A stretch of 49,010 nucleotides of DNA from Octopus sinensis (Eukaryota), in NCBI RefSeq assembly GCF_006345805.1, contig NW_021834448.1, positions 1 through 49,010 of the forward strand. The letters are read 5' to 3'. Both the position numbers and the translations under genes were made by a program. How positions within the stretch are numbered: position 1 is the first letter of the stretch; the number at the start of each line of letters is the position of its first letter. Positions 22,302 to 34,338 of this stretch are shown piece by piece. The notes below the pieces were generated by a model. The model did not search any database and was not told where the DNA came from. It was given only the letters and a program-made list of their open reading frames with translations.

Positions 22302-22424
22302 CTTCCCCCTTCCCCCTCTCTCTTTTTACTGTTCAATTTATCTTATTCTGTTTCCCATCTGTAGGAATGAATCCAATTGGCATAGAAAATATGTGCTGGT
22401 TATCTATCTATCTATCTATATCTA

Positions 22425-22485
<61 letters not shown>

Positions 22486-22502
22486 GATCTATCTATCTAT
22501 CT

Positions 22503-23793
22503 GGGCCGGAACCCATGGACAACTTCCAGAGATCCCTGGCCTGGCAGTGCTACCGAGAAGCGCTACCCGTTCGGGATAAGCTCTATAGGCATGGCTCGAG
22601 AAACACGGGGCCGACCTGCTCGAGATGCGGTCAGAGCGACGAAACCGTTCTGCACGCAATCGTGCAGTGTCCAACAATCTCCGACCTGTGGGCTTATGTC
22701 GAACGACTGCTGTCACGTGTGGGACGTGTCGGTTTATCAGCCGAGTCTATCGTCAATATCGTCACGCCTCCTTCCTTCAAACGGGAAGGAAGAGTTATTT
22801 TCATCATACTTGTGGCTATGGCGAATGTATCTGGTGGACGCGCCTGAAAGTATTAGAGACAAACACTTTCCTCTCTGGTCAATCTCTCATCAACTTCAAG
22901 TATCACTTGAAAAGGAAAGTGAGAGTAGAGAGGCAAGTTTTGTCTAGTGAATGTTTTAAGAAAAGATGGGTGAATGTAGCAAGGATGACACGTATGAATG
23001 ACGAAGCCACCTTGACTATGATCCTATGAACCGTAAAAATTAATACGGAGAGTTGCTTATTTGTAAAAAAAATATAACATGTGACATCATTGACCGAGGA
23101 TATCGTGGTCTTTTCCGTAGGCTTTTCTTTCCACGGGTAAACCTCACCTGTCTTCCCCTTTACACTTTATATTGACATTTCCTTGATAACGATCCCTATT
23201 GATCGATTTTTTCTTTTTCCTTTTCTCTTTCTCTTTCTCTCTTTTACTTGTTTCAGTCATTTGACTGCGGCCATGCTGAAGCACCGCCTTTAATCGAGCA
23301 ACTCGACCCCGGGACTTATTCTTTTGTAAGCCCGGTACTTATTATATCGGTCTCTTTTGCCGAACCGCTAAGTAACGGGGGACATAAACACACCAGCATC
23401 GGTTGTCAAGCAATGCTAGGGGGACAAGCACAGACACACAAACACACACATGCATATATATACATATATACGACGGGCTTCTTTCAGTTTCTGTCTACCA
23501 AATCCACTCACAAGGCTTTGGTCGGCCCGAGGCTATAGTAGAAGACACTTGCTCAAGGTGCCACGCAGTGGGACTGAACCCGGAACTATGTGGTTGGTAA
23601 ACAAGCTACTTACCACACAGCCACTCCTGCGCCTTTTATCTTAATATACACTTTTTTTTTTGCTTTATTCTTTCTTTCCATTTACGATCCCTTTTGATCA
23701 AAAACTAACCCCCCTTTTTTTATTCCCCAAAGAAAAGCTCTACTTTGTAATTTGTCCCGTCTGTGTGCAGCCCTGTGTGGCTAATAAAGAAAC
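22503..23793 (+). mobile_element. 5'-truncated L1/Tx1-clade LINE (3' end), interrupted by a SINE, inside a (TATC)n array
   Basis: High similarity to 31825-32668; zf-RVT-like LPVRDKL..CSRC..ETVLHAIVQC; shared 3' end GCCCTGTGTGGCTAATAAA. Confidence 0.9.
23239..23633 (-). mobile_element. Full-length tRNA-derived SINE (family A)
   Basis: Minus strand GGCGCAGGAGTGGCTGTGTGG (A box), GGGTTCAGTCCC (B box), internal TA/TG tract, tail CAAGTAAAAGAG; several copies in the window. Confidence 0.9.
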
Positions 23794-26900: not shown

Positions 26901-26972
26901 CCTCCCCGACCCAATCGTTTCTTTTCTTCTCATCGCTCGTAGACCATTCTTCGCCCTGACAGCCCCATATAT

Positions 26973-27117
26973 ATATTGCGAACAGGAGCGAGCTATTGCC
27001 ATCTCTATAAGACGAGGTGTCCAGTATTGAAGAGCAGAAGAAATAGCCCGAAACCAGGATGGTCTGCTGGTCCCGTCGTTAGAAGGTGGTAAGGGTTCGC
27101 TCCCCTACTCGCAATAT
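26973..27117 (+). ncRNA. Type I hammerhead-like ribozyme (core 27021-27070) capping a long rod
   Basis: Stem I CCAGUA/UGCUGG; core UUGAAGA..GAAA; stem III ACCA-GGA-UGGU; GUC triplet; extended pairing out to 26973/27117; stem II weak. Confidence 0.6.
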
Positions 27118-27773
27118 CTTGGATGCAGCTGTGCATCGTTAACCAGATAGAGATGTCCTCTTGGGGTTAAAGGATTGCAATAAAGTTCATTTGAACGGAC
27201 AACCATGCTGCAGTGGCTACAAACATGACTTGTTAGTACAACTACTGCGTTGATCTTTTAGAGAGATTTTACAACGAGCATTTTCGAACGAAATTTGTTT
27301 TGCAAAAAAAAAAAAAAAGAACTATTAAAGAGACTCTAAAAGTTTATGTAAACGATTCGAAAATTCAAAACCGAAAGTTTGATATATACTCTTGGAGTTT
27401 ATCGAATAAATTACAATTTTCGTTTCCCTGTGCCACATGAACTCCCAAAGAAACAAGTCTTTAGAATGGTTGGTTCCACAACGTCGTTCCTTTCTCTCAT
27501 TTTAGACCGGCCCATGTGCTTTCAACTTGCTACACGTGGGTCCCATCTTTGTTGCAGCGATCAAAGTAGTGACATTCGCACGCGAAAACTCGACAGACAA
27601 CAAGTTTGTTACTATGGAAACAGACATCAATGTGGGATTTACAGTCATGTGTTCAATGGTGGCTTTCGATTGGCTAAAATCACTTCTAAATTTTTACACT
27701 TTAAAAACTGTTAACTTTTTATTTACTAATTTATGGCGGAAATGAATTTTATTTTCATAATTAGCATAATTCT

Positions 27774-30345: not shown

Positions 30346-30734
30346 TGATCTTGGAGTTCGCCGACGTGAATCTTAATCTGCTAGGATTGGTTTCTGAAAT
30401 TAGAACTGCGTTCCTGTACTATATTCGTTCCGAGACCTGCAGCCGCTTACTACTCATTTTCCACTACGTCACTATTAACTATAGGAATAACCCTGATTCT
30501 CCACTATCTATCAGAGTGCTGTCATTGCTACGGCCGTGGTACTGCTAGCGGGAAATGATGCTGGGGATGCTAATGGGGCTCTCTACCCTACTCCCATTGT
30601 TACCGTCAACCACAACACCCTATTTATAACTATACCCCTAGTGGGTACTCCCTGGCTGGAGCGAGATTATGTGTCACTGTACTGGCTCTCATATATATAT
30701 ATATTGGCATGGGTGGGGCCCTGATCAATTTGGA

Positions 30735-32356
30735 TCAATCGGTCCCGTCTTCCGCGGCTGGATAGCCGCTTTGTACAGAGGTTTCCGTTCGGTAATTCGC
30801 GTAAATGGACATCTATCGAAACCTTTCGACATTGCACGTTCGGTCCGTCAGGGATGCCCCCTCTCGTCGCTTCTCTACGTATTGACTCTCAAGCCATTAC
30901 TGCGGAAGCTGGCGACTCTGCGGGACATCCCGCGAGAATTGGGATGGGGGACGAGCGTGTCTGCATTCGCGGACGACGTTACCGTCATAGTGTCTAGCCA
31001 CGAGCAAATCGAGCTGGTCGGCGAGGCACTGAAAGACTACGAAGCGGTGACAGGAGCGAAAATCAACCGGGAAAAGTCAGTGGGCTTGCGGCTCGGCACC
31101 TGGAGAAGCAAGCCCATGCCGTCCACCAGCGCTTCCGTCGTGGGACGCTGGACCAACGGTCCGGTCGAGTTGCTCGGGGTCTGGTTTGGTCCGGATTTCC
31201 AAATGGAGAAGAACTGGAACGAGATAACGAGTAGGGAGGTCACTCTCGCTCGGCAATGGGCCGAGAGGAAACTGTCCCTAAAAGGTCGGGCGGAGGTGGA
31301 GAACATGTGCATCGCGTCCGTCATCTACTACCGCCTGACCGTCGTGCCTTGTCCCGACCTTACCATCACCAAACTAGAACACATTCTCTTCCGCTTCTTG
31401 TGGAAAGGATGCGTCCCGATGGTCAGGCGATCCATTTGCTGTCAACACCCATTAAAAGGAGGACTGGGCATGCCGTAGTTGATGATGCGCTGATGCGCAG
31501 ACACGCGCTGAGACTGCGACATCTCCGGCTCTACGTAGACGACGGTGAACAGGTGTGGTCGCGTTTGTAAAGCACGCTTTCCCGCAGCTCGTCTCCATGA
31601 CTGAACTACAGTCGTGGATCAAAAAGAGGCCGAGGAAGGGCGAATAGCACAGCGAGTGTCGCGTTGCTCTCAGGCAACTCTGCCGTCACGGGTCGACCTT
31701 GAGTGACTTCAACACAACCAAAGCATTCTATAGGGGATTAGTGGAGGGGAGGTACGACGACGATCTTGGGGCAAACCTGGACGTCGACGAGGAATACCTG
31801 CCCCGCCTGTTCAGGACAACTTTCGGGCCAGGACCCATGGACAACTTCCAGAGATCCCTGGCCTGGCAGTGCTACCGAGAAGCGCTACCCGTTCGGGATA
31901 AGCTCTACAGACACGGCTCGAGAAACACGGAGCCGACCTGCCCGAGATGCGGTCAGAGCGACGAAACCGTTCTGCACGCACTCATGCAGTGTCCAACCAT
32001 TTCCGACCTGTGGGCTTATGTCGAACGACTGCTGTCATGTGTGGGACGACTCGGTTTATCAGCCGAGTCTATCGTCAATATTGTCACGCCTCCTTCCTTC
32101 AAACGGGAAGGAAGAGCTATTTTCATCAAACTTGTGGCTATGGCGAAAGAATGTATCTGGTGGACGCGTCTGAAAGGATTGAAGACAAACACTTTCCTCT
32201 CTGGTCAATCTCTCATCAACTTCAAGTATCACTTGAAAAGGAAAGTGAGAATAGAGAGGCAAGTTTTGCCTAGCGAATGTTTAAAAAAGAAGATGGGTGA
32301 ATGTAGCAAGGATGGCACGTATGAATGACGAAGCCACCTTGAGCATAATCCTATGA
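30735..32356 (+). pseudogene. Disrupted ORF2 reverse transcriptase (L1/Tx1)
   Basis: ORFs 30669..31478 and 31699..32328 are pieces of one broken frame. Confidence 0.88.
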
Positions 32357-32664
32357 ACCCGGAAAAATTTTAAACAGAGAGTTGCTTACTTGCAAATAAA
32401 TATGTTAACATGTGACATTATTGACCGTGTTTACCGTGGTCTTTTCCGTAGGCTTTTCTTTCCACGGATAAACCTTATCTGCTTCCCCCTTTACACTTTA
32501 CATCATGACATTTCTGTGATACACGATCAATAGGGATCGTTTTTTTGTTTCCTTTTTACGATCCCTTTTAATCGAAAACCTACCCCACTTTTTTCTTCTC
32601 CCCAAAAAGAAAAGCTCTACTTTGTAATTTGTCCCGTCCGTGTGCAGCCCTGTGTGGCTAATAA

Positions 32665-32668
<4 letters not shown>
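30735..32668 (+). mobile_element. 5'-truncated L1/Tx1-clade LINE (RT C-terminal half, zf-RVT, 3' UTR)
   Basis: SVRQGCPLSSLLY, AFADDVTV, GAKINREKS, LSLKGR, GGLG, CPRC..ETVLHALMQC; in-frame stops; AATAAA then (TA)n. Confidence 0.92.
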
Positions 32669-34054: not shown

Positions 34055-34338
34055 TAATAAATATTAGGGAATAAATCCAAACTTACAGGGAAAAATCAGA
34101 TTTAGGATTGAATCCAATTTTATAGTAAAATATTATATTATATTAAATTAGAGACAAAACCACTATTATGCAAATCAAACAAAGAAAGACTTAAGCCATA
34201 CATAAATTAATTTATATTATTTATAAAGTAACAATTATTAATATCCACTACGATCGTTTCGTGTCTTCAGTCATCAAATCTTTGAGTAGTAGACATTCAT
34301 CAGGTGGTTTCAGAATATTCTTGGCGAGTTTTAAACAA
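34052..34338 (-). mobile_element. Penelope pLTR-like fragment with hammerhead; an inverted piece of it lies at 35382-35405
   Basis: Starts at a (TA)n tract; contains a canonical hammerhead core; perfect 24-bp inverted copy of 34137-34160 next to another (TA)n tract. Confidence 0.6.
34245..34307 (-). ncRNA. Type I minimal hammerhead ribozyme
   Basis: Stem I CCAC/GUGG; CUGAUGA; stem II (A.C) UGUCU/AGACA; GAAA; palindromic stem III ACGAUCGU; GUA triplet. Confidence 0.82.

What the first reader, a model, noticed from the sequence alone, without database searches (positions are those of the whole stretch)
26973..27245. Hammerhead-like ribozyme at the tip of a 145-nt G.U-rich rod, in an unclassified small element
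Seen on +: nested helices 26973-81/27109-17 (9 bp), 26985-94/27094-103 (10 bp, 2 G.U), 26996-27004/27084-92 (9 bp, 2 G.U), GACG/CGUC, then stem I CCAGUA/UGCUGG enclosing UUGAAGA..GAAA, stem III ACCA-GGA-UGGU and a GUC triplet (predicted cut after 27064). The non-Watson-Crick pairs in these helices are G.U on this strand, which points to RNA-level structure rather than a DNA palindrome. It starts at a short (TA)n and is followed by AATAAA at ~27179. Unlike PLE minimal hammerheads, stem III can form intramolecularly. Caveats: C3U core change and a nearly absent stem II, so this copy may be dead. Inference: an LTR-like or retrozyme-like non-coding element not explained by any ORF in the window.
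Basis: partly seen in the sequence, partly recalled or inferred. Interest (0 to 1): 0.8.

Follow-up and report, generated by a model that had tools for sequence, protein, structure and literature searches.

The report
Hammerhead retrozyme, target of promoter-seeking LINE
This is a decayed copy of a common 360-base repeat whose family carries a predicted self-cutting RNA (a retrozyme), and a lineage of larger jumping genes inserts into such repeats, and into zinc-finger gene clusters, about 30 bases after a TATA box, likely at the transcription start so as to borrow the promoter.

Summary
The rod and hammerhead are real. The locus is one decayed copy (about 10% from the column majority) of a ~361-bp tandem-unit repeat with over 1,000 candidate copies. 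The family has a canonical type I hammerhead, fixed 3' ends, 5' truncation, partial tandems and inverted arms. This fits an animal non-LTR retrozyme likely moved by Penelope-like elements, not an LTR element. Pairing covaries between sister families. This copy has C3U and a broken stem II; its AATAAA is a private mutation.

The new part: an L1/Tx1-type LINE lineage inserts in sense at window 27000 (±1), with 13-19 bp duplications. Of 28 LINE 3' ends of one old subfamily, 27 join a retrozyme there. Related subfamilies hit the same position in sister families whose sequence differs, a Penelope terminal repeat, and C2H2 zinc-finger cluster promoters. The LINE therefore likely targets polymerase II start sites by position. 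No start site, cleavage or circle was tested, and I found no report of this targeting in seven searches.

The parts
26967..27284 (+). One 5'-truncated copy of retrozyme family A (unit about 361 bp); lacks the first ~39 bases of the unit, including a block shared with family B upstream of the TATA box
26968..26975 (+). TATATATA, likely TATA box; TATAWAW starts 32 and 30 bases before the LINE site
   Evidence: same spacing in families B, E, F, H
26973..27117 (+). Rod of nested helices closing the hammerhead. The 5' arm upstream of 27000 could pair only in read-through or circular RNA if transcription starts near 27000 (inference)
27000..27018 (+). Empty LINE target site (junction at 27000 +/-1) and the 13-19 bases duplicated on insertion; predicted transcription start
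27021..27070 (+). Type I hammerhead: stem I 27021-26/27065-70, core 27027-33 (C3U here), stem II 27034-49 (2 of 4 pairs lost here), GAAA 27050-53, stem III 27053-63, predicted cut after 27064
27179..27184 (+). AATAAA, private to this copy and 2 of 38 others; family reads AGTAAA
27231..27284 (+). Region between the family's two recurrent 3' end points (about 27235 and about 27289), the ~54-base 'tail' usually present on one arm only; the window copy departs from the family after 27284

Best explanation
The locus is a decayed copy of a hammerhead-bearing tandem repeat (a non-LTR retrozyme) that was likely copied by Penelope-like enzymes, and its likely promoter is the fixed landing site of an L1/Tx1-type LINE that inserts about 30 bases below TATA boxes. 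Shown: the repeat family, its hammerhead motif and covarying rod, its Penelope-like insertion anatomy, the LINE junctions with target duplications, and the TATA spacing. Inferred for the retrozyme: polymerase II starts near 27000, reads through tandem units, and two hammerheads (helped by the palindromic stem III, as dimers) cut out a ~361-nt monomer that includes the next unit's promoter and can circularise; a GIY-YIG Penelope-like RT copies it into (TA)n. Inferred for the LINE: it is guided by the TATA-bound initiation complex, nicks the template strand at about +1 and the other strand 13-19 bases on, lands in sense and is transcribed from the captured promoter. In retrozyme targets the hammerhead 65 bases downstream stays intact and could trim read-through LINE RNA.
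For: Family and structure. Covariation between families A and B (plus one C and one E row): 24 pairs, 93.7% of cells paired, 15 pairs with changes on both sides, slid controls 27-49%. Penelope anatomy: of 36 loci, 15 continue head-to-tail and 14 hold both orientations; 22 of 38 outer ends run into TA/CA repeats. Neptune-like PLEs with intact 775-883 aa ORFs, minimal hammerheads and TA targets are in G000. Only 1 of 108 retrozyme loci holds a PLE fragment. LINE: 27 of 28 complete 3' ends join a retrozyme at the homologous site; duplications of 13-19 bp; tandem insertions around a duplication. TATA 28-33 bases upstream in 17 of 24 junction rows (20 with a relaxed motif) against 4.9% (7.1%) background, and in 10 of 10 further copies with an exact duplication. 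Target sequences differ among A, B, D, F, H, a PLE repeat and zinc-finger promoters. Three copies in a B site carry a 13-base 5' extension of A-site sequence (L127, L133, L136), as expected if LINE RNA starts in its host promoter.
Against: No start site, cleavage or circle was measured. Sites were assigned by hand and many rows are related (retrozyme families are homologous; cluster copies may be segmental duplicates), so the independent classes number about eight. Exceptions: L346 and L142 lack a TATA at 28-33; L341 and L315 sit about 22 bases further downstream in the zinc-finger promoter; L351, L355 and L371 show no duplication. Many 5'-truncated old copies have no upstream half of the target. 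No PLE terminal repeat homologous to family A was found among 30 PLE loci. Family B has 10-13 bp duplications at AT-rich sites rather than (TA)n. Covariation rests mainly on one A-versus-B contrast, and only helices in alignment register were counted.
Confidence: 0.7

Rival explanations
1. Retrozyme as above, but the LINE finds its site by sequence or RNA-DNA homology: read-through 3' target sequence (ended by the hammerhead) anneals to another copy of the same repeat, as in R1/R2, and the TATA spacing is inherited from an ancestral target.
For: 3' junctions are precise and lack a poly(A) tail; subfamilies tend to return to the same target family; A, B, C and E share CAYCTCTAG.
Against: One subfamily hits both A and B without chimeric flanks; unrelated targets (zinc-finger promoters, PLE repeat, sites X1, X2, X4) share only the TATA spacing.
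Confidence: 0.17
2. The repeat is not a free retrozyme but the terminal repeat (pLTR) of an autonomous Penelope-like element not yet found, surviving as 5'-truncated copies.
For: Inverted arms, one-sided tail, TA targets and hammerhead are pLTR hallmarks (10.1101/2021.04.23.441226; PMC4209133).
Against: Upstream of a unit lies the previous unit, not an ORF; 107 of 108 loci lack any match to two PLE proteins within 1.5 kb, also in young families F and H.
Confidence: 0.07
3. The LINE-retrozyme junction arose once or a few times and was spread as a composite by the Penelope machinery, so there is no targeting.
For: Many old copies lack the upstream half of the target; L119 lies inside an inverted family-B structure.
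Against: Duplications at both ends in many copies, different target families for one LINE subfamily, tandem insertions, and young intact copies at other promoters.
Confidence: 0.04
4. LTR or LTR-retrozyme of the plant kind, as the first reader left open.
For: A TA-rich start and an AATAAA in this copy.
Against: Type I not type III hammerhead, tandem units, no paired LTRs or internal region, AATAAA not conserved.
Confidence: 0.02

Closest known systems
Animal non-LTR retrozymes (Cervera and de la Pena 2020, PMC7229834; Li et al. 2026, 10.64898/2026.07.22.740005)
   Same: Tandem 150-450 bp units, type I hammerhead, GC under 50%, no ORF, co-occurrence with PLEs, monomers to multimers.
   Different: Inverted arms with a one-sided tail, a conserved TATA box 57-59 bases above the core, and use as a LINE target are not described in the parts I read; the 2026 study sampled no mollusc.
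Penelope-like element pLTRs (PMC4209133; 10.1101/2021.04.23.441226)
   Same: Partial tandems, inverted 5'-truncated copy, tail at one end, palindromic helix III, microsatellite targets.
   Different: No ORF attached; tail about 54 bases rather than 30-40; no homologous pLTR found in 30 PLE loci.
Target-specific Tx1-clade LINEs: Tx1 in Tx1D, Keno in U2, Kibi/Koshi in microsatellites, Tx1-Mar in Mariner-N4 (PMC4494074, PMC4640811)
   Same: APE endonuclease + RT + zf-RVT, CCHC ORF1, fixed site in a multicopy element, long duplications, tandem insertions.
   Different: Here the site sequence varies while the distance to a TATA box is fixed, and targets include retrozymes and protein-coding gene clusters. 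Clade membership was not tested by phylogeny.
Position-specific Ty3, TRE5-A and NLTR-A at polymerase III genes (PMC5911963)
   Same: Insertion at a fixed distance from a promoter complex containing TBP; Ty3 inserts at the start site; TRE5-A and NLTR-A are L1-group elements.
   Different: Those target tRNA/5S genes through TFIIIB; this one sits at likely polymerase II TATA promoters, in sense orientation.
R2 co-transcription with 28S rRNA (as cited in PMC4494074; the ribozyme detail is recalled)
   Same: Reliance on the target's transcription; a ribozyme near the element end.
   Different: R2 is sequence-specific, uses a restriction-like endonuclease and carries its own 5' ribozyme; here the ribozyme belongs to the target and lies 3' of the element.

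Membership tests
Non-LTR retrozyme | Type I hammerhead core and three stems | tested here: met
   Family: core intact in 16 of 36 copies, core and all stems in 4 of 36. Not met by the window copy itself (C3U, 2 of 4 stem II pairs).
Non-LTR retrozyme | Tandem units of 150-450 bp | tested here: met
   361 bp (A), 353 bp (B), 352 bp (F); 15 of 36 A loci continue head-to-tail
Non-LTR retrozyme | No ORF and no paired LTRs around an internal region | tested here: met
   PBS and PPT were not searched separately
Non-LTR retrozyme | Conserved self-paired RNA structure | tested here: met
   circular folds of natural units z -0.9 and -2.6 (A), -4.6 and -5.5 (B), with antisense folds also stable
Non-LTR retrozyme | Self-cleavage in vitro | not testable with these tools
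   needs transcription assay
Non-LTR retrozyme | Linear and circular monomer RNA in vivo | not testable with these tools
   only contigs of runs guessed to be RNA were available
Autonomous Penelope-like element | RT + GIY-YIG ORF joined to the repeat | tested here: not met
   1 of 108 loci has a PLE fragment, about 1.2 kb away
PLE-mobilised non-autonomous element | Fixed 3' end, 5' truncation, partial tandems, inverted arm, one-sided tail | tested here: met
PLE-mobilised non-autonomous element | Sequence shared with a partner pLTR | tested here: inconclusive
   none among 30 GIY-YIG loci of 5,029 candidates
LTR retrozyme | Type III hammerhead in paired LTRs, 4-bp duplication | tested here: not met
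L1 group LINE (the targeting element) | ORF1 plus ORF2 with APE, RT and C-terminal zinc finger; closer to L1 than R2 | tested here: met
   the closest database relative scores about 173 bits on human L1 ORF2p and up to 88 on R2
Tx1 clade | RT phylogeny with named Tx1 references | not tested
Target-specific LINE (over 20% of flanks in one repeat type, criterion of PMC4494074) | Fixed site with duplication | tested here: met
   27 of 28; 18 of 30 protein-selected loci lie directly above a hammerhead
Position-specific, promoter-guided element (Ty3/TRE5 type) | Fixed distance to a promoter element with variable site sequence | tested here: met
   with the listed exceptions
Position-specific, promoter-guided element (Ty3/TRE5 type) | Dependence on the initiation complex; site equals the mapped start | not testable with these tools
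   needs CAGE and a retrotransposition assay

The most novel reading that the evidence does not exclude
A cephalopod L1/Tx1 lineage is a LINE that integrates at polymerase II transcription start sites, set by the TATA box. It parasitises the promoters of hammerhead retrozymes (themselves parasites of Penelope elements), may use their ribozyme to end its RNA, and is still inserting at the start sites of the C2H2 zinc-finger gene clusters.
Probability: 0.55. Interest if true: 0.85.

Novelty: new variant of a known kind. Interest (0 to 1): 0.7.

Why it matters
The retrozyme alone is a new member of a known class. The targeting is the surprise. Known promoter-guided retrotransposons with base-level precision use polymerase III genes. 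A LINE that lands at TATA+30 of likely polymerase II promoters would be a new targeting mode, with intact young copies (ORF2 1,131-1,181 aa, two copies 99.9% identical) available to test it. Its insertions would also map the otherwise unknown promoter of animal retrozymes, giving a direct test of how they are transcribed. Repeated insertion at the start of clustered C2H2 zinc-finger genes could shape the regulation and turnover of that gene family.

Tried and rejected
Rfam: no hammerhead match in the window region (E up to 10) or in five loci at gathering threshold, so Rfam silence is uninformative here. Sequencing runs: no RNA holder listed; contigs of three runs guessed to be RNA cover the family but cannot show ends, strand or circles. 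Thermodynamic folds do not recover the hammerhead fold in monomers or dimers; one region (L220) was mis-specified and is ignored. Partner pLTR: none found. Distant LINE relatives in metagenomes (80 loci, 25-44% identity) have no hammerhead by my scan, but that scan scores only 6 of 30 known G000 junctions, so this is weak. One search was off target and returned a young Helitron-like repeat. The window's own L1-type LINEs (22386-23790, 30642-32665) are a sister lineage (50% RT identity over 111 aa) ending in microsatellites, unrelated to this locus. My notebook idea that L341 shows a 5' extension was wrong: it is a second site about 22 bases downstream. 'C3U proves the copy dead' was rejected as too strong: young family H has U3 with G8 in 24 of 25 copies. 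Earlier scan findings: none.

Full report
Observation. The helices, core boxes and GUC are as described. The + strand folds at z -6.5 and the - strand at z -3.3. G000 is a 2.7-Gb, microsatellite-rich animal genome; the closest named relative of the LINE described below is from Argonauta hians (59% identity), so a cephalopod host is likely (inference).

Family A. A DNA search gave 1,163 candidates, 40 scored, 61 matches, the best at 80-86% identity. The repeat spans window 26967/8-27284 and is part of a ~361-bp unit repeated head-to-tail. The 39 aligned copies differ from the column majority by 5-13%, the window copy by 9.8%; only 8 exact matches to a 32-base core motif exist, so the family is old. 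C3 is present in 33 of 37 other copies with a letter there. The core is intact in 16 of 36 copies and all stems too in 4 of 36. The window copy has C3U, two of four stem II pairs lost and a C>A change in the palindromic stem III; it is probably inactive (inference; C3U impairing cleavage is recalled). Caution: young family H has U3 with G8 in 24 of 25 copies, so C3U alone does not stop spread. AATAAA is found in 2 of 38 other copies.

Mobility. Copies end at two fixed points about 54 bases apart. Of 36 loci, 15 continue in tandem and 14 hold both orientations; 22 of 38 outer ends run into TA or CA repeats. These match the PLE hallmarks in 10.1101/2021.04.23.441226 (passages). G000 has many GIY-YIG PLEs (5,029 candidates) with Neptune-like cysteine motifs (label), intact ORFs and minimal hammerheads, mostly U3-A8, near TA-joined ends (15 hits in 38 partly overlapping loci against 0.3 in shuffles; variant described in PMC4209133, passages). 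No PLE repeat homologous to A was found, and 107 of 108 retrozyme loci lack PLE protein. This fits non-LTR retrozymes (PMC7229834, part 2 of 6 and passages; 10.64898/2026.07.22.740005, parts 1-3 of 5; its supplements were not seen).

Sister families and structure. Families B (2,755 candidates, 353 bp, 3-7% from majority), C, D and E, and young F (2,100 candidates, 96-99%, 352 bp) and H (1,784 candidates, 97-99%) share the layout. On an A/B/C/E alignment of 22 rows, 24 pairs in three helices are 93.7% paired with 15 pairs changed on both sides; slid controls give 27-49%. I counted only helices in register and dropped three outer pairs that B breaks. The signal is mostly one A-versus-B contrast.

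The LINE. Several A copies begin exactly at window 27000 next to a LINE 3' end. A search with the LINE 3' end alone gave 30 loci: 28 reach the terminus and 27 of these join a retrozyme at the homologous site (A 13, of which two show only 14-17 target bases and one lacks the first 20; B 11; C, D, E one each); L063 is unassigned. Leaving out the query and three loci found earlier through the repeat gives 23 of 24. The core usually starts 26-30 bases downstream. Of 19 examined 5'-end loci (30 fetched; 11 internal matches not examined), 7 follow the upstream half of a retrozyme, 9 follow another element's 3' end plus the duplication, and 3 are uninformative. Duplications are 13-19 bp. L127, L133 and L136 have a B-site duplication followed by 13 bases of A-site sequence. 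A second element with ORF1-like frames only ends at the same site or its duplication in about 19 of 24 loci. Contigs of run X2 (organism B) show LINE-like loose ends at the same site (11 + 11 contigs). Against simple insertion: many truncated old copies lack the upstream half of the target.

Position rather than sequence. A protein search found young intact subfamilies (Pfam zf-CCHC, Exo_endo_phos, RVT_1, zf-RVT; L1-like; 74% identical to the old RT). Of 30 loci, 18 sit directly above a hammerhead, in families whose site sequences differ. Others lie in a PLE repeat (L342), at unclassified sites, or in promoters of a C2H2 zinc-finger cluster on C28 (8 of 10 cluster-type copies have zinc-finger linkers within about 3 kb). 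A TATA motif starts 28-33 bases above the site in 17 of 24 hand-assigned rows (20 relaxed) against 4.9% (7.1%) background. For 20 further attempts, 15 had a 3' end, 10 an exact duplication, and all 10 a TATA at 29-32 with a slightly widened motif list; four of these loci also appear. By eye L358 and L368 also fit with one mismatch. Exceptions: L346, L142, L341/L315 (about 22 bases downstream), L351, L355, L371. Independent target classes number about eight. TATA at about -30 from the start site is established knowledge, so the site is the predicted start. The LINE 5' end has runs of six or more T, which favours polymerase II over III (inference).

Comparison and novelty. Tx1-clade elements that target transposons, snRNA genes and microsatellites are known (PMC4494074, passages and section 15; PMC4640811, passages). 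The figure legend there lists a 'satellite' target that I could not identify, since figures and supplements were not seen; it could be a retrozyme. Position-specific targeting is known at polymerase III genes (PMC5911963, passages). An octopus repeat annotation lists 13 active L1-Tx1 families and has no occurrence of 'target', 'promoter' or 'hammerhead' (PMC13282606, passages). Searches (0 papers; 0 papers) listed no report of a LINE targeting retrozymes or TATA-defined start sites; I saw most of those results as listings only, and Repbase and subscription journals were not searchable.

Verdict. Retrozyme identity about 0.9; fixed-site LINE insertion shown; TATA-guided start-site targeting about 0.7; use of the host hammerhead by the LINE is speculative (about 0.25).

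Noticed in passing
window 34242-34307 (-): A minimal type I hammerhead (CUGAUGA, long helix II, palindromic helix III, GUA-type site) about 190 bases above a (TA)n run; likely a truncated PLE terminal repeat.
   Followed up: partly
window 30642-32665 (+) and 22386-23790 (+): Two broken L1/Tx1-type LINE copies (RVT_1, zf-RVT) of a sister lineage ending in (TA)n and (TCTA)n; not hammerhead-targeting.
   Followed up: partly
L197-L226: An apparently ORF1-only non-autonomous derivative of the targeting LINE that uses the same site.
   Followed up: partly
L380-L404 (family H): Young retrozyme family with an uncompensated U3-G8 core in 24 of 25 copies and a UUC site; a natural test of whether cleavage is needed for spread.
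   Followed up: partly
G000:C28 about 4.36-5.50 Mb (L341, L354-L372, L430-L449): C2H2 zinc-finger gene cluster with many young LINE copies at the predicted start sites.
   Followed up: partly
L107-L110: Young Neptune-like PLE with a 781-aa RT-GIY-YIG frame preceded by an overlapping 479-aa frame with no Pfam match; no hammerhead found by my scan in these loci.
   Followed up: no
L177-L196: Young (97-99% identical) ~390-bp repeat ending in a hairpin and CTAG, Helitron-like (label recalled), 739 candidates.
   Followed up: no
window 10316-10768 (+) and 4797-5249 (-): Open frames resembling a mariner transposase fragment and a retroelement RT fragment (resemblance recalled, not scanned).
   Followed up: no
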